Shown: positions 1 through 43,981 of the stretch, in pieces
Layout of the letters: each line of letters begins with the position of its first letter
Numbering within the stretch: position 1 is the stretch's first letter
Source of the DNA: a virus
Taxonomy: Duplodnaviria; Heunggongvirae; Uroviricota; Caudoviricetes
IMG/VR virus record: IMGVR_UViG_3300045988_012512
Span: 1-43,981 of that record
Length of the DNA stretch: 43,981 nt
Direction: 5' to 3' (one strand)
Translations under genes and position numbers: made by a program
The notes under the pieces: generated by a model
The model's input: only the letters and a program-made list of their open reading frames with translations
What the model was told of the DNA's origin: nothing
Databases searched by the model: none

Positions 1-55
1 GAATAATGTTGTTGATGCGCGCACCATCTAGCGCTACCCGCGGCGGCTTGACTAC
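1..55. repeat. 55-bp terminal direct repeat, identical to 43927..43981 (genome junction / assembly overlap)
   Basis: Same 55-nt string at both ends of the window; minus-strand tailspike frame is continuous across the junction. Confidence 0.85.
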
Positions 56-8920: not shown

Positions 8921-9028
8921 TCTTTAATCCTTTGGTTAAGAGGTTACAGGTTAACGATAAATGCGCCAGACGGGAACCACCCGCTTTTCGTGTGCGACAC
9001 TAGGCGCAAACTTATTCTATCACATTAC

Positions 9029-9057
9029 TTGCACACCCCAATATAATAGGGTACTAT
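9029..9057 (+). promoter_or_regulatory. sigma70-type promoter (TTGCAC-17-TACTAT) for the plus-strand island
   Basis: Canonical spacing; same promoter architecture recurs at 18527, 29673 and 30772. Confidence 0.55.
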
Positions 9058-9087
9058 TCACTTACACCAACAATGAAGGGGTTTAAA

Positions 9088-11491: not shown

Positions 11492-11518
11492 AAGGCCCCG
11501 AAAGGGGCCTTAGTTTTA
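11492..11518. terminator. bidirectional intrinsic terminator (AAGGCCCC-GAAA-GGGGCCTT)
   Basis: 8-bp GC stem flanked by A-run and T-run; lies between convergent genes. Confidence 0.7.
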
Positions 11519-17975: not shown

Positions 17976-18207
17976 GTGTAATTACCTCTGATTTCGTCTT
18001 ACCTTCGTTGTCAGCGGCTGCGGCCTTTGATTCATCCTGCTGCTGCCGTTGTGTTTTCTTCGCTAGCTCAGCCTGTGCTTTCTGCTGTTGCTGCGAAACG
18101 AGATTAGCACGGCCTTCACCCCAGCCGCTGCGGTATTGATAGATGCCGTGTGCGTAGGCCAGGACGACGAAACATGCTCCGGCTACGACAGTTGCTTTAA
18201 GATTCAT
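17821..18207 (-). CDS. i-spanin (Rz-like)
   Basis: N-terminal transmembrane helix then Gln/Ala-rich coiled coil; overlapped architecture with the o-spanin. Confidence 0.65.
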   Translation of the reverse strand: MNLKATVVAGACFVVLAYAHGIYQYRSGWGEGRANLVSQQQQKAQAELAKKTQRQQQDESKAAAADNEGKTKSEVITREVVKYIKTPGRSVCTFDDARVLLKSRAVANANSIPGYDDDATTVQTGTAK

Positions 18208-18231
18208 GTTTCCCCTTTCTCGATAAGTAAA

Positions 18232-18258
18232 GCCCCGCCTTAAAGCGGGGCGCTAGTC
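18232..18258 (-). repeat. 27-nt conserved hairpin element (AGCGCCCCGCTTTAAGGCGGGGCTTTA), copy 1
   Basis: Near-identical to the plus-strand element at 31042..31068 (one mismatch, in the loop). Confidence 0.6.
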
Positions 18259-18526
18259 CTTATCATTTAAACATAGAAACGGCGTAATCTCAGTAAACCA
18301 GTTACTTTTTACACAAGCAATAGAGTATGGCCCTTCCGAACGCGTCAGCGTAACTACACTCAGGACTTACGTCCCGCTCCGTTACCTGCCCGCGCCGCGG
18401 TCGCTTGTTCATACTTCACAAGCTCAGGTGGAGCTTATCATATTTTCAGTGAAAAGTCAACTATTCGAATAGTTTATTCCAACGTTTACAATTGAGTGGA
18501 ATAACTGGAATACGTAAATAAATAGT

Positions 18527-18555
18527 TTGCGCACACCAACATAATAGGGTACTAT
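18527..18555 (+). promoter_or_regulatory. sigma70-type promoter (TTGCGC-17-TACTAT) for the DnaN-like gene
   Basis: Spacer and -10 region nearly identical to the promoter at 9029. Confidence 0.55.
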
Positions 18556-18582
18556 TCAGTTAACTTAAACAGGAGATGAGAA

Positions 18583-19104
18583 ATGGTTACTACAGTAATT
18601 ACTTTCCCTGCGTATGTAGGGGCAAAAATCTGCAGGGCTAAAAATGATGTGCGCTACTATTTGAACGCTTTTTACATAGACCCTGAAGGATTGATAGTGT
18701 CTACGGACGGTCATAGATTGTTCTGCGACAATGTGAAGACCAATGTTGAGAAAGGGACTCTCATAGACATCAAAGGGAGAGAGCCTTCTAAATTTAACTA
18801 CGCAGAGGTAAACCACGACAACGGCAGTGTAACTTTCTATGACGATAATCGTGCGCTTATATGCACGCTTCCGGTAGATGTTGTAGAAGGAAACTTTCCT
18901 GACTGGAGACGCGTGGCGAACATCACACCGGGTGTTGTCGATAGTATAGGGTTCACTCTGCGCTATTTGGCAGACGCGTACAAGATTTCTAAGGCATACA
19001 AAAATGAAATTGCTCGTTTCGATTTCCAGGACCAAACCAGAGGATGTAAAATACTATTTTCAAACACGGCCTTTATGGTGTTAATGCCTGCGCGATTTAA
19101 ATAA
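18583..19104 (+). CDS. truncated DNA polymerase III beta sliding-clamp (DnaN) homologue
   Basis: DVRYYLN, STDGHRL, FPDWRRV and C-terminal VLMPARFK match E. coli DnaN motifs DVRYYLNG, TDGHRL, FPDYRRV, VMPMRL; AGGAG RBS, own promoter and terminator. Confidence 0.7.
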   Translation: MVTTVITFPAYVGAKICRAKNDVRYYLNAFYIDPEGLIVSTDGHRLFCDNVKTNVEKGTLIDIKGREPSKFNYAEVNHDNGSVTFYDDNRALICTLPVDVVEGNFPDWRRVANITPGVVDSIGFTLRYLADAYKISKAYKNEIARFDFQDQTRGCKILFSNTAFMVLMPARFK

Positions 19105-19108
19105 AACT

Positions 19109-19131
19109 AAGGCCCCATAATGGGGCCTTTT
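19109..19131. terminator. bidirectional intrinsic terminator (AAGGCCCC-ATAAT-GGGGCCTT)
   Basis: GC stem with T-run; lies between convergent genes. Confidence 0.7.
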
Positions 19132-30737: not shown

Positions 30738-30771
30738 AACCACCACTCCTCTGTCTCGTTTCGATAAGTGA

Positions 30772-30800
30772 ATAGTATCCTATTATATTGGGGTGTGCAA
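30772..30800 (-). promoter_or_regulatory. sigma70-type early promoter (TTGCAC-17-TACTAT)
   Basis: -35, spacer and -10 nearly identical to the promoter at 9029..9057. Confidence 0.55.
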
Positions 30801-31152
30801 GAGAATAGTTACGTTGCCGTTGTGATTCTTTCGTTTCTTTAAAGAGTACGCAACGCAGTGGGTGGGCGATAGCCCACCCCAGCGGAGTGAAGTACTCTCT
30901 ACCTTGCTTACGGCAACTAAAGAAACTTTTAATTATCAAGTACTTATGAATGGAGGTAAAATTTAAATAGACGGGGTCTTTCTTGTCACTTGCTGTTACT
31001 TTTAGGAAACTTAGATACTAACGTTACCAAGAGTACTGTTTAGCGCCCCGCTTTAGGGCGGGGCTTTAAGTACCCGAGACTTAAGAATAATGTTTCTAAG
31101 TAATTCTGAACTAAGGCCCTTCGATACGTTGATTTTACAGCTACATTTTATT
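30801..31152. promoter_or_regulatory. divergent control region with nested palindromes, AGTAC repeats and a conserved hairpin
   Basis: About 350 bp without credible ORFs between divergent operons; inverted repeat AGAGTAC/GTACTCT around an 8-bp GC hairpin; hairpin element at 31042..31068. Confidence 0.5.
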
Positions 31153-31192
31153 TTGTCAATAGGTTGTGTTTAGTTATTATAGGTGTTATAGT
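31153..31192 (+). promoter_or_regulatory. tandem sigma70-type promoters (TTGTCA-16-TATTAT and TTGTGT-17-TATAGT) for the plus-strand operon
   Basis: Hexamers with canonical spacing upstream of the gene at 31222. Confidence 0.45.
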
Positions 31193-34191: not shown

Positions 34192-34210
34192 AAGGGGCAT
34201 TAAGCCCCTT
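34192..34210. terminator. bidirectional intrinsic terminator (AAGGGGC-ATTAA-GCCCCTT)
   Basis: Hairpin between convergent genes, T-runs on both sides. Confidence 0.6.
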
Positions 34211-34415
34211 CACCTAACGCCAGCCACTTGGCGTCTACTTCCAGCACTTCCGCCAGTTTAAACAGCGTTGCCGGGCGGACGTCCTGAGTTACACCGAGAG
34301 CCAGCTGGTTAATCGCACCCTGGGAAACGCCAGTCAGGACAGCCAGCCGGCGCTGGGAGATGCCGAGTTCTTTACGGCGTTGCTCTACACGGATTCCTAG
34401 TTCAGATGGTTGCAT
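34200..34415 (-). CDS. XRE-family (Cro/CI-type) HTH transcriptional regulator
   Basis: LGISQRRLAVLTGVSQGAINQL HTH; AAGGAG RBS; divergent from the promoter at 34480. Confidence 0.65.
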   Translation of the reverse strand: MQPSELGIRVEQRRKELGISQRRLAVLTGVSQGAINQLALGVTQDVRPATLFKLAEVLEVDAKWLALGEGA

Positions 34416-34479
34416 GTCAATTACTCCTTAGTCAGTTGATATGTGAATAGTACCATATTAATTATTTTAGAAAAGCCCA

Positions 34480-34508
34480 TTGACATGTGAATAGTTCGCT
34501 ATTATAGT
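34480..34508 (+). promoter_or_regulatory. consensus sigma70 promoter (TTGACA-17-TATAGT)
   Basis: Perfect -35; overlaps the second copy of the ATGTGAATAGT direct repeat. Confidence 0.6.
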
Positions 34509-34538
34509 TAGCCCATACCAAACGAGAGGAGAGACAAA

Positions 34539-37102: not shown

Positions 37103-37131
37103 TTGACACCTGAATAGCAAGCTATTATAGT
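37103..37131 (+). promoter_or_regulatory. consensus sigma70 promoter (TTGACA-17-TATAGT) for SSB and polymerase genes
   Basis: Perfect -35 with canonical spacing. Confidence 0.6.
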
Positions 37132-37190
37132 TCTAATCACTGGCCGGGCAGCTTCCCGGAGTAAACGAAACTGAAAAGCGAGAAATCACG

Positions 37191-37842: not shown

Positions 37843-37866
37843 AAGGCCCTTCATTGGGCCTTTTTA
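37843..37866 (+). terminator. intrinsic terminator (AGGCCC-TTCATT-GGGCCT then five T)
   Basis: Between SSB and DNA polymerase genes. Confidence 0.55.
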
Positions 37867-40413: not shown

Positions 40414-40697
40414 TGACCCCGGAAGGCAAAATACAGAAATACGCGAAAGAGCGATTCGAGGCCCTCGGCGGCCTCGTTCGTAAACTTTCCTATGAGGGGC
40501 GCTCCGGCGCTCCCGACCTGCTGGTGATTCTCCCCGGCGGCATCGTCTGGTTCGTCGAGGTTAAGAAAGACGAAAACACGGAACCAGACCCACACCAGTT
40601 ACGAGAGCATGAGCGGATGCGTAAACGTGGCGCGAATGTTTTTGTCGTCGGATCGTTTAAACAGGTTGACGACCTAATAGCGAACTATTATAGTTAG
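40413..40697 (+). CDS. VRR-NUC domain nuclease
   Basis: GAPDLLVILPGG...VWFVEVKK PD-(D/E)xK core. Confidence 0.65.
   Translation: MTPEGKIQKYAKERFEALGGLVRKLSYEGRSGAPDLLVILPGGIVWFVEVKKDENTEPDPHQLREHERMRKRGANVFVVGSFKQVDDLIANYYS
40666..40694 (+). promoter_or_regulatory. sigma70-type promoter (TTGACG-17-TATAGT) inside the 3' end of the VRR-NUC gene
   Basis: Canonical spacing; -10 identical to the promoters at 34480 and 37103. Confidence 0.45.
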
Positions 40698-42478: not shown

Positions 42479-42498
42479 AAGGCCCCGTTTGGGGCCTT
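42479..42498. terminator. intrinsic terminator ending the late minus-strand operon (AAGGCCCC-GTTT-GGGGCCTT)
   Basis: GC stem; T-run on the minus-strand side, right after the tailspike stop. Confidence 0.7.
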
Positions 42499-43926: not shown

Positions 43927-43981
43927 GAATAATGTTGTTGATGCGCGCACCATCTAGCGCTACCCGCGGCGGCTTGACTAC
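43927..43981. repeat. second copy of the 55-bp terminal direct repeat
   Basis: Identical to positions 1..55. Confidence 0.85.

What the first reader, a model, noticed from the sequence alone, without database searches (positions are those of the whole stretch)
18232..18258. Near-identical 27-nt GC hairpin element at two distant regulatory junctions
AGCGCCCCGCTTTAAGGCGGGGCTTTA occurs on the minus strand at 18232..18258, just upstream of the spanin-scaffold-capsid genes, and with one loop mismatch on the plus strand at 31042..31068, just upstream of the plus-strand early promoters. Both copies face into the gene block they precede. That is too conserved for independent terminators; it may be a shared protein-binding site, an antitermination or processing signal, or an insulating terminator controlling read-through.
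Basis: seen in the sequence. Interest (0 to 1): 0.55.

Follow-up and report, generated by a model that had tools for sequence, protein, structure and literature searches.

The report
Duplicated terminator-like RNA stem-loop in phage
The two near-identical 27-base hairpins are real copies of one element, the top of a ~43-base RNA stem-loop that closes a conserved non-coding leader in front of this E. coli phage's late (lysis and capsid) genes, while the second copy is a rare transplant into the early control region, so the finding is a genuine but fairly ordinary regulatory hairpin sitting inside a more interesting, undescribed leader RNA.

Summary
The repeat is real. The 27-mer lies at 18228-18254 (-), 4 nt from the stated coordinates, and at 31042-31068 (+) with one loop mismatch; no shuffle reproduced it. 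The window is a complete Kagunavirus (K1G-like) genome.

The 27-mer is the apical part of a 41-43-nt imperfect stem-loop. Its outer helix differs between contexts (GAUAAG:CUUAUC, GUACU:AGUAC, UAUACG:CGUAUA) but always pairs: 96.5% of cells are paired and 8 of 17 pairs are compensatory.

- **Site 1** is ancestral. It occurs in all 46 relatives examined, about 20 nt before the i-spanin start, at the end of a ~218-nt conserved, structured, non-coding leader downstream of a conserved extended -10 promoter.
- **Site 2** is lineage-specific. It occurs in 2 of 33 metagenomic relatives and 6 sequenced phages, inside a mosaic cassette between divergent early promoters. In 15 of 33 relatives that region instead carries a paralog of the site-1 promoter and leader.

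The identity therefore reflects descent and module shuffling, not a shared sequence-specific ligand.

In Kagunavirus both copies score as orientation-specific, moderate intrinsic terminators. Jerseyvirus and Cornellvirus keep the stem-loop but not the U-tract. Most likely role: a leaky leader terminator whose read-through form is a stem-loop in the 5' untranslated region. The function is untested.

The parts
18228..18254 (-). Focal 27-mer, site-1 copy (AGCGCCCCGCTTTAAGGCGGGGCTTTA)
   Evidence: Exact match; listed as terminator-like (8 pairs, tail TTTACTTATC)
18222..18264 (-). Full 43-nt stem-loop at site 1: outer helix GAUAAG:CUUAUC, 3-nt bulge GAC, middle helix UAG:UUA (with a G.U pair), C/U mismatch, 8-bp GC helix, tetraloop
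   Evidence: MFE -22.3 kcal/mol, z = -3.4; covariance-model hit of 79.7 bits against 21.5 bits on the opposite strand; pair counts
31042..31068 (+). Focal 27-mer, site-2 copy (one loop mismatch)
   Evidence: not listed by the simple terminator scan, with 4 T in the 8-nt tail
31033..31073 (+). Full 41-nt stem-loop at site 2: outer helix GUACU:AGUAC, bulge GUU, and the same middle and inner helices as site 1
   Evidence: MFE -21.4 kcal/mol, z = -2.2; covariance-model hit of 66.2 bits against 15.5 bits on the opposite strand
18208..18425 (-). About 218-nt non-coding leader of the late operon, from the predicted transcription start to the i-spanin ATG; more conserved than the neighbouring gene
   Evidence: Alignments; mean pairwise identity 0.96-0.97 against 0.886 for the i-spanin CDS; no Rfam family
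18336..18401 (-). Structured 5' domain of the leader: long helix CCGCGGCGC/GCGUUCGG enclosing further helices and a variable hairpin
   Evidence: Consensus folds: one pair occurs as UA x12, CG x10, AU x2; other pairs are compensatory; conserved G.U pairs fix the strand; the inner hairpin takes at least 6 different sequences
18432..18460 (-). Predicted late-leader promoter TTGACT-17-TAAGCT, with TG at 18440-18439 (extended -10)
   Evidence: Conserved across Kagunavirus, Jerseyvirus and FSL SP-031; unique in the window; annotated as 'Host promoter1' in fBC-Eco01
18461..18512 (-). Conserved upstream elements: TATTCC-AGT-TATTCC (18512-18498), GGAATA, and the palindrome CTATTCGAATAG (18472-18461)
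   Evidence: Invariant blocks, also present in Cornellvirus FSL SP-031; single copy in the window
18270..18297 (-). Weak predicted second promoter TTTACT-16-TATGTT, whose start site would fall on the first bases of the stem-loop (A18263/G18264)
   Evidence: Read directly from the sequence; corresponds to 'Host promoter2' annotated in fBC-Eco01; inference only
31132..31180 (.). Back-to-back divergent early promoters sharing one -35 region: leftward TTGACA-16-TAAAAT (31159->31132) and rightward TTGTCA-16-TATTAT (31153-31180)
   Evidence: 11 of 12 and 10 of 12 matches; conserved in all cassette types
30860..30879 (.). Second hairpin of the early control region (GGGTGGGC-GATA-GCCCACCC). In Type C relatives this position holds a leftward stem-loop with the same architecture as the focal element
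30765..30801 (.). 37-nt promoter-like palindromic element, also at 9028-9064 and 18527-18562; lies 240-270 nt from each hairpin copy
   Evidence: I1, D9; PHIRE motif reported in PMC9825357

Best explanation
The 27-mer is the upper part of a 41-43-nt imperfect RNA stem-loop. At site 1 this stem-loop closes a conserved, structured, non-coding leader of about 218 nt. The leader is transcribed leftward from a conserved extended -10 promoter, and the stem-loop ends 14 nt before the i-spanin start codon. Proposed mechanism (inferred, not shown): host RNA polymerase transcribing the leader meets an 8-bp GC helix followed by UUU. A fraction terminates there, releasing a leader RNA of about 200 nt. The rest reads through into the spanin, scaffold and capsid genes. 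In read-through mRNA, or in mRNA started at a weak promoter just upstream, the outer helix closes. The result is a stable stem-loop immediately 5' of the ribosome-binding site, which probably protects the late mRNA. The site-2 copy is a recent duplicate of this module, inserted in the opposite genomic orientation into a mosaic cassette between the divergent early promoters. There it can stop rightward transcription from running into the early promoter region, and it also forms a hairpin near the 5' end of the leftward early transcript. The near-identity of the two copies reflects common descent through the frequent exchange of regulatory modules between these two control regions. It does not reflect selection for a shared sequence-specific ligand.
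For: Structure: extended folds are predicted in every context. On a model-based alignment of 22 distinct sequences, 96.5% of cells are paired against 82.3% in shuffles (0 of 500). Eight of 17 pairs are compensatory, and 4 of 6 outer-helix pairs change on both sides. Slid controls give 38-53%. One-sided changes turn wobble pairs into Watson-Crick pairs: G.U to A-U in L041 and U.G to C-G in L065.

Strand: the covariance model scores 79.7 and 66.2 bits on the sense strands against 21.5 and 15.5 bits on the antisense strands.

Terminator character: the site-1 copy passes the consensus scan. A classical score gives +14.0 and +6.3 on the sense strands against -36 and -40 on the opposite strands, as good as the window's other terminators. 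The homologous hairpin is annotated as an ARNold-predicted terminator in fBC-Eco01.

Context: the element is at a fixed position before i-spanin in 46 of 46 relatives. The leader has a conserved promoter and is non-coding, with 1-nt indels and no ATG region in Jerseyvirus. The leader is more conserved than the i-spanin gene. Its 5' domain shows covariation and G.U pairs.

Descent and shuffling: the site-2 copy is present in only 2 of 33 loci and 6 phages. The repeat has sharp borders. Fifteen of 33 relatives carry a 145-nt paralog of the site-1 promoter and leader at site 2. Type C relatives have a stem-loop of the same architecture with a different inner helix in the early-left leader.
Against: No transcript ends have been mapped; the only transcriptome paper on a relative gives gene-level data only. 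The U-tract is short (UUUA) and is itself base-paired in the full structure. The Jerseyvirus homologues score as non-terminators (-3 and -17), and the Cornellvirus homologue has no U-tract (-60). Termination therefore cannot be the function conserved across the subfamily. A constitutive terminator between a promoter and its genes makes little sense unless read-through is regulated or the hairpin has a second role. No strong rightward promoter is predicted upstream of the site-2 copy; the best candidates match 9 of 12 positions. The strongest promoter there reads the copy in antisense, where it does not score as a terminator. The terminator score formula was recalled from memory.
Confidence: 0.45

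Rival explanations
1. It is purely a stem-loop of the 5' untranslated region, acting as an mRNA stabiliser or processing site with no role in termination. The late mRNA would begin at or be cut next to the stem-loop. It could start at the weak promoter TTTACT-16-TATGTT, whose predicted start is the first base of the outer helix, or it could be processed by RNase III or RNase E. A 5'-terminal hairpin then shields the abundant scaffold and capsid message from 5'-end-dependent decay.
For: What is conserved across three genera is a long stem-loop ending 14-20 nt before the i-spanin start, not a U-tract. The 3' strand of the outer helix lies downstream of any termination point, yet it co-varies. 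A predicted promoter places the start site at the base of the helix. A variant with a perfect 18-bp helix exists, L062 at -32.5 kcal/mol. That 5'-terminal stem-loops stabilise E. coli mRNAs is established knowledge.
Against: The site-2 copy is not followed by a conserved gene; the 27-codon ORF after it is truncated in K1G and K1ind3. With 17 bp in all, the stem is short for an RNase III substrate. The second promoter is weak (8 of 12 matches) and has no clear -35 in Jerseyvirus. In Kagunavirus the terminator-like tail is invariant.
Confidence: 0.25
2. It is a checkpoint terminator in a regulated antitermination system. The conserved ~70-nt multi-helix leader domain would act in cis on RNA polymerase, like the put RNAs of HK022, or an unidentified phage protein would act like lambda Q at PR'-tR'. 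Either would make polymerase resistant to the stem-loop terminator and to the later terminators of the long leftward late array. The focal hairpin would hold late expression off until then.
For: The layout is promoter, then a leader of about 200 nt, then a terminator-like hairpin, then lysis and morphogenesis genes. The leader domain is a structured RNA on the sense strand. The same core promoter plus domain is duplicated at the head of the early-left operon in 15 of 33 relatives, as expected for a portable cis-acting module. Several terminators lie downstream in the same transcription direction. The upstream TATTCC repeats suggest a dedicated regulator.
Against: No Q- or N-like protein was found among 10 small early proteins tested, and none is annotated in a well-annotated relative. 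The domain does not have the two-hairpin architecture of put. No alternative antiterminator pairing that co-varies with the hairpin was found. Jerseyvirus and Cornellvirus keep the leader but lack a convincing terminator. The window's own site 2 lacks the domain.
Confidence: 0.15
3. It acts at the DNA level, as a palindromic binding site or cruciform for a phage protein. The protein could be the HTH regulator encoded next to site 2 or a replication-origin factor, and it would be shared by the two control regions.
For: The GC arms form a perfect palindrome. The Type A cassette is co-inherited with a distinct allele of the adjacent HTH gene, 98% identical within the type against about 70% to other types. 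Site 2 lies at the GC-skew turning point beside the helicase-primase gene. Three genomes have 27 of 27 identical copies.
Against: The site-1 element is present whatever the HTH allele. G.U and U.G pairs, together with one-sided changes to Watson-Crick pairs, point to RNA on one strand. The inner helix is entirely different in the Jerseyvirus, Cornellvirus and Type C paralogs while the architecture is kept. A sequence-specific DNA site would not tolerate that. The outer helix differs completely between the two copies in the same genome.
Confidence: 0.07
4. The two are independent terminators that converged on the same sequence, or the match is due to chance.
For: This genome also reuses another terminator stem three times, AAGGCCCC/GGGGCCTT at 11492, 19109 and 42479. 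Similar terminators at distant sites are therefore not unusual here.
Against: None of 100 shuffles gave a match. Identity extends to the loop (5 of 6 bases) and to the unconstrained flanks TAGC and TTTA. The other repeated terminators differ in their loops.
Confidence: 0.01

Closest known systems
Intrinsic (Rho-independent) terminators used as leader attenuators
   Same: A GC-rich 8-bp hairpin is followed directly by U residues. The behaviour is orientation-specific. The element lies between a promoter and the genes it controls. It was predicted as a terminator by ARNold in a relative.
   Different: The U-tract has only 3 U and is base-paired with upstream UAG. A further co-varying outer helix spans the termination point. 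Homologues in sister genera lack the U-tract. No competing antiterminator structure was found.
Lambda PR'-6S RNA-tR' late leader with Q antitermination
   Same: A promoter is followed by a non-coding leader of about 200 nt. This ends in a terminator-like hairpin placed directly before the lysis and head genes of a long, single-direction late array.
   Different: No Q homologue or Q-binding element was found. The leader here is a conserved multi-helix RNA. The promoter has a non-canonical TAnGCT -10 with TG and conserved upstream repeats, which suggests activation rather than constitutive firing.
nutL/nutR boxB hairpins of lambdoid phages
   Same: Two near-identical short hairpins differ by one loop base. 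They lie in two distant control regions and are inverted relative to each other.
   Different: There is no boxA. The loop is not purine-rich and has a freely variable position. The site-2 copy is not downstream of the rightward early promoter. The second copy is missing from most relatives. No N-like protein was found.
HK022 put RNAs (cis-acting processive antitermination RNAs)
   Same: This comparison applies to the leader domain, not the 27-mer. It is a promoter-proximal structured RNA present as paralogs in two operons, upstream of terminators.
   Different: The architecture is one long helix enclosing further helices rather than two adjacent hairpins. There is no sequence similarity, and function is untested.
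Phage T7 RNase III processing sites and 5'-terminal stabilising stem-loops (for example ompA)
   Same: An imperfect stem-loop with a bulge or internal loop recurs at junctions before highly expressed genes and lies just upstream of a ribosome-binding site.
   Different: It has only about 17 bp, which is short for RNase III. No cleavage data exist. There are only two copies per genome.

Membership tests
Intrinsic (Rho-independent) terminator | Stable GC-rich stem-loop (stem of 5-14 bp, loop of 3-8 nt) | tested here: met
   An 8-bp stem at -15.8 kcal/mol at both sites
Intrinsic (Rho-independent) terminator | U-rich tract immediately 3' of the stem | tested here: inconclusive
   Site 1 has UUUACUUAUC and passes the scan (5 T in 8). 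Site 2 has UUUAAGUA and does not. Scores are +14 and +6.3 in Kagunavirus, -3 and -17 in Jerseyvirus, and -60 in Cornellvirus. The UUUA is paired in the full fold.
Intrinsic (Rho-independent) terminator | RNA 3' ends are produced at the U-tract | not testable with these tools
   No end-mapping data are available. The published RNA-seq of a relative is gene-level only.
Lambda-type Q-dependent late leader (PR'-tR') | Promoter, short non-coding leader and terminator placed directly before the lysis and morphogenesis genes | tested here: met
   The predicted promoter at 18460-18432, the 218-nt leader, the stem-loop, then spanins, scaffold and capsid genes
Lambda-type Q-dependent late leader (PR'-tR') | A Q-family antiterminator gene | tested here: not met
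   No hit among 10 small early proteins in Pfam or PHROGs, and none annotated in Bas73. Not every ORF was scanned.
nut site (boxA + boxB) / N antitermination | A boxB hairpin with a conserved purine-rich pentaloop, plus boxA, located downstream of both early promoters | tested here: not met
   The loop is UUUANG, with N taking any base. The site-2 copy lies upstream of the rightward promoter. The second copy is absent in 31 of 33 relatives.
Known RNA families (Rfam 15) | A match at or above a family's gathering score | tested here: not met
   No hits over the whole window. Only noise (E of 0.4 or higher, under 17 bits) was found around both sites.
Dispersed host-type palindromic repeats (REP/MITE-like) | Many dispersed copies, also present in the host genome | tested here: not met
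   Two copies in the window. No match in 5,426 E. coli genomes.
RNase III processing site (T7 type) | About two helical turns of imperfect duplex with an internal loop, and cleavage by RNase III | tested here: inconclusive
   The stem has 17 bp with a 3-nt bulge and one mismatch, which is shorter than typical sites. Cleavage cannot be tested here.

The most novel reading that the evidence does not exclude
The stem-loop is one part of a portable, undescribed cis-regulatory RNA module of Guernseyvirinae. The module comprises a conserved non-canonical promoter, a ~70-nt multi-helix RNA domain and a terminator-like stem-loop. These phages place it before the late operon and, in many genomes, before the early-left operon. 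It would time late expression by RNA-mediated (put-like) or activator-coupled read-through, without any known antiterminator protein. The 27-mer would be its checkpoint terminator.
Probability: 0.2. Interest if true: 0.75.

Novelty: new member of a known kind. Interest (0 to 1): 0.42.

Why it matters
Kagunavirus and Jerseyvirus phages are widely isolated for therapy and biocontrol, yet how they switch to late gene expression is unknown. This work shows several things about the region in front of their lysis and capsid genes.

- It is not a small protein gene, as several genome records annotate it.
- It is a conserved structured leader RNA ending in a terminator-like stem-loop.
- Pieces of this control region are swapped into the early control region in different lineages.

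This gives concrete targets for transcript-end mapping and mutagenesis: one promoter, one RNA domain and one stem-loop. It also corrects the annotation. If read-through proves to be regulated, it would be a new example of leader-based late control in a virulent siphovirus.

Tried and rejected
- **Known RNA families:** Rfam search of the whole window and, at permissive thresholds, around both sites found nothing.
- **Homology beyond the 27-28 nt:** local alignment of the flanks against shuffles was not significant, so the two sites are not copies of a larger module in this genome.
- **Host origin:** no match in complete E. coli genomes.
- **Small protein in the leader:** the 36-aa ORF annotated in three relatives is rejected because of 1-nt indels and loss of the start region in Jerseyvirus.
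- **Coding ORF after the site-2 copy:** 31090-31173 is rejected because the start codon is lost or a stop appears in relatives.
- **nut/boxB reading:** rejected (see the membership test).
- **Concerted evolution of the two copies:** loops match in 3 of 6 genomes, close to the roughly 2 of 6 expected, and the genomes are not independent. This is not supported.
- **Further copies of the late promoter or TATTCC repeats in the window:** none found.
- **Degenerate pattern scan of IMG/VR for the leader domain:** too loose, returned unrelated contigs, and was discarded.
- **Literature:** only prediction-level annotation of terminators and promoters, and one gene-level RNA-seq study. There is no transcript-end mapping.
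- **Competing antiterminator pairing for the hairpin's 5' arm:** inspection of the leader alignments showed none that co-varies.

Full report
**1. The observation**

The 27-mer AGCGCCCCGCTTTAAGGCGGGGCTTTA is present once on the minus strand at 18228-18254. It is present with one loop mismatch on the plus strand at 31042-31068. No shuffled genome gave any match. The stem GCCCCGC/GCGGGGC occurs nowhere else in the window. The inverted repeat is 28 nt long. Similarity stops sharply at its ends, with flank alignments at p = 0.24-0.67. A hairpin's second arm is fixed by the first, so about 21 positions are independent, and 20 of them agree. The two are therefore copies of one element, not convergent inventions.

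**2. What the window is**

The window is a complete Kagunavirus (K1G-like, Guernseyvirinae) genome. It is 97% identical to phage fPoEco01 around site 1. A 55-nt overlap at the ends comes from circular assembly.

The annotation of relatives gives the layout. From the divergent control region near 31.0-31.2 kb, a long leftward array runs through these blocks:

- small early genes;
- holins and endolysin;
- terminase, portal and head-decoration genes;
- a short reverse-strand cassette;
- spanins, scaffold, major capsid, connector and tail genes.

Site 1 sits where the array restarts after the reverse-strand cassette, 20 nt before the i-spanin ATG at 18207. Site 2 sits in the roughly 390-nt non-coding region between the leftward early genes and the rightward HTH and helicase-primase genes. 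It lies 85 nt upstream of a pair of back-to-back promoters that share one -35 region.

**3. The 27-mer is only the top of a longer stem-loop**

The sequences flanking the 27-mer are complementary to each other, and they differ between contexts:

| Context | Outer helix |
|---|---|
| Site 1 | GAUAAG:CUUAUC |
| Site 2 | GUACU:AGUAC |
| Jerseyvirus homologue | UAUACG:CGUAUA |

The 'TAGC' and 'TTTA' ends of the repeat pair with each other as UAG:UUA, with a G.U pair and a C/U mismatch. Minimum-energy folds give the same architecture everywhere: an outer 5-6-bp helix, a 3-nt 5' bulge, a 3-4-bp middle helix, a 7-8-bp GC helix and a tetraloop. The energies are -22.3, -21.4 and -20.9 kcal/mol.

I built a covariance model from the Kagunavirus copies. 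It finds exactly two hits in the window, and both are strongly strand-specific:

| Copy | Sense strand | Opposite strand |
|---|---|---|
| Site 1 | 79.7 bits | 21.5 bits |
| Site 2 | 66.2 bits | 15.5 bits |

On the model-based alignment of 35 hits (22 distinct sequences), 96.5% of cells are paired against 82.3% in shuffles (0 of 500). Eight of 17 pairs have compensatory changes, including 4 of the 6 outer-helix pairs. Slid controls give 38-53%. One caveat applies: the alignment was fitted to the structure.

One-sided changes convert wobble pairs into Watson-Crick pairs, G.U to A-U in L041 and U.G to C-G in L065. The single variable loop position takes all four bases at site 1 and G or U at site 2. 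That argues against sequence-specific recognition of the loop.

**4. Site 1 is ancestral and belongs to a conserved structured leader**

All 46 IMG/VR relatives that encode the i-spanin carry a hairpin at the same position. Stem changes are compensatory: GCCCCGC/GCGGGGC, GCCCTGC/GCAGGGC, GCCCGGC/GCCGGGC and GCCCGAC/GTCGGGC.

Upstream, the following are conserved across Kagunavirus and Jerseyvirus, and in Cornellvirus FSL SP-031:

- the repeats TATTCC-N3-TATTCC, with GGAATA;
- a palindrome, CTATTCGAATAG;
- a -35 element, TTGACT;
- an extended -10 element, TGnTA(A/C)GCT.

This promoter is unique in the window. It coincides with 'Host promoter1' annotated in fBC-Eco01.

The transcribed leader of about 218 nt is annotated in several records as a 36-37-aa hypothetical protein. 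Relatives carry 1-nt indels in it, and Jerseyvirus lacks the start region, so it is very probably not coding. Among 36 distinct Kagunavirus sequences the leader is 96-97% identical. The i-spanin gene is 88.6% identical overall and 81.6% at third codon positions.

The 5' half of the leader folds into a multi-helix domain. One pair occurs as UA x12, CG x10 and AU x2, and others are compensatory. Two conserved G.U pairs fix the strand as the late-gene sense strand. The inner hairpin has at least six unrelated sequences that all pair. Rfam has no matching family.

**5. Site 2 is a rare transplant in a mosaic region**

Only 2 of 33 relatives that encode the neighbouring HTH gene have the hairpin there. 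Only 9 database records, representing 6 phages (K1G, K1H, K1ind2, K1ind3, EC3-1 and LM02P1), carry this cassette, which I call Type A.

The region exists in at least three interchangeable forms:

- **Type A** carries the focal stem-loop in the rightward orientation.
- **Type B** (15 of 33 relatives) carries a 145-nt paralog of the site-1 core promoter plus the 5' leader domain, facing leftward, at 77-87% identity.
- **Type C** carries other structures, including a long stem-loop at the position of the focal copy.

In Type C relatives the leftward hairpin near position -360 has the same architecture as the focal element but a different inner helix. It reads AAAUGUAAC-GAUUAUU-GGGCAGGC-UUAAG-GCCUGCCC-UUUA-GUUAC.

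The late and early control regions of this phage family therefore repeatedly exchange regulatory pieces. The window's second copy is one such event. Within genomes that have both copies, the 27-mers are identical in K1G, K1ind3 and EC3-1. They differ by one loop base in the window, K1H and LM02P1. This gives no clear sign of concerted evolution.

**6. What it does**

*In favour of a terminator role in Kagunavirus:*

- The site-1 copy passes the consensus scan.
- A classical terminator score, with the formula recalled from memory, gives +14.0 and +6.3 on the sense strands. It gives -36 and -40 on the opposite strands. The sense-strand values are as high as those of this phage's other terminators.
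- The homologous hairpin is an ARNold-predicted terminator in the fBC-Eco01 record.

*Against termination as the conserved function:*

- The U-run is only UUU and is paired in the full fold.
- The 3' strand of the outer helix lies beyond any termination point, yet it co-varies.
- Jerseyvirus homologues score -3 and -17, and the Cornellvirus homologue has no U-tract at all.

There is no room for a promoter between the hairpin and the i-spanin start, and none is predicted within the spanin genes. The spanin genes, and probably the scaffold and capsid genes, must therefore be transcribed through the hairpin.

My best reading is a leaky leader terminator whose read-through form is a stable stem-loop just 5' of the ribosome-binding site. 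A weak promoter, TTTACT-16-TATGTT, would start transcription on the first base of the stem-loop. That fits a 5'-terminal stabiliser role ('Host promoter2'; sequence).

Regulated antitermination is attractive because of the lambda-like layout and the portable leader domain. However, no Q- or N-like protein was found among the 10 proteins tested.

At site 2 the strongest promoter (11 of 12 matches) reads the copy in antisense, where it is only a hairpin. A rightward transcript that it could terminate would have to come from weak candidate promoters (9 of 12 matches).

**7. Comparison with known systems, and novelty**

The element works like an intrinsic terminator or leader attenuator combined with a stem-loop in the 5' untranslated region. 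The overall layout resembles lambda PR'-tR'. The 'two hairpins differing by one loop base' pattern recalls nutL and nutR. The defining features of both systems, Q or N together with boxA and a conserved loop, were tested and not met.

Reuse of terminator hairpins is common in this genome. AAGGCCCC/GGGGCCTT occurs three times. A duplicated hairpin is therefore not exceptional here.

Three things appear to be new as far as the searched literature and Rfam show:

- the extended architecture of the stem-loop;
- the conserved structured leader;
- its paralogs at the early control region.

I rate the focal finding a new member of a known kind, of moderate interest. The more novel possibility is that the leader and stem-loop form a portable RNA-based read-through switch.

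Noticed in passing
window 18301-18411 (-): The 36-aa 'hypothetical protein' annotated at this position in relatives (Schulenberg_008, fBCEco01_09, Bas73_0007) lies inside the structured late leader. It is probably not a gene: relatives carry 1-nt indels, and Jerseyvirus lacks the start region.
   Followed up: yes
window 18336-18401 (-); paralogs in L083, L087, L089-L091, L093, L094, L097-L099, L108-L112 (about 120-260 nt upstream of the HTH gene start, reverse strand): A conserved multi-helix RNA domain of about 70 nt has strong covariation and no Rfam family. It is present before the late operon in Kagunavirus and Jerseyvirus. In 15 of 33 relatives it is duplicated, together with its core promoter, at the early-left control region.
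   Followed up: partly
window 9028-9064, 18527-18562, 30765-30801, 34436-34465, 34480-34509, 37103-37132, 40666-40695: A family of promoter-like elements is built around the palindrome AATAG-N4-CTATT. This is the 'phage promoter' motif tgAATAGTa-ccTATTat-T found with PHIRE in a published relative, although these phages encode no RNA polymerase. It is likely a set of host-polymerase promoters with an embedded operator, possibly bidirectional.
   Followed up: partly
window 30802-31131; loci L081-L113: The non-coding region between the divergent early promoters exists in at least three interchangeable cassette types, with recombination borders at conserved blocks such as TTATCA. Type B contains a (GTGA)n microsatellite whose length differs between relatives (L083 against L090).
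   Followed up: partly
window 31132-31180: The leftward promoter (TTGACA-16-TAAAAT) and the rightward promoter (TTGTCA-16-TATTAT) are back to back and share the same -35 base pairs (TTGTCAA/TTGACAA).
   Followed up: no
window 11492-11511, 19109-19129, 42479-42498 (and 37843-37862): Three terminator hairpins have the identical stem AAGGCCCC/GGGGCCTT but different loops, and there is a fourth variant. Terminator stems are reused across this genome.
   Followed up: partly
window 1-55 and 43927-43981: An exact 55-nt direct repeat lies at the two ends of the window. It is most likely the overlap of a circular or circularly permuted assembly, so the true genome length is 43,926 bp.
   Followed up: no
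window 34203-34415 (-): A Cro/C1-type HTH gene (Pfam HTH_3, E = 2e-12) lies on the reverse strand inside the rightward operon. Two copies of the palindromic promoter motif lie next to it at 34436 and 34480. It is a candidate regulator for that motif.
   Followed up: no
window 18583-19104 (+): The lone plus-strand gene just upstream of site 1 is annotated variously as a sliding clamp, a RusA-like resolvase or a beta-clamp domain protein. It is a variable cassette: relatives carry different genes or none at this position, while the promoter and leader next to it are constant.
   Followed up: no
window 30842-30900: The hairpin GGGTGGGC-GATA-GCCCACCC is enclosed by a further 7-bp helix, AGAGTAC/GTACTCT. 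A third AGAGTAC copy at 31030-31036 lies directly before the site-2 stem-loop, so alternative long-range pairings are possible.
   Followed up: no
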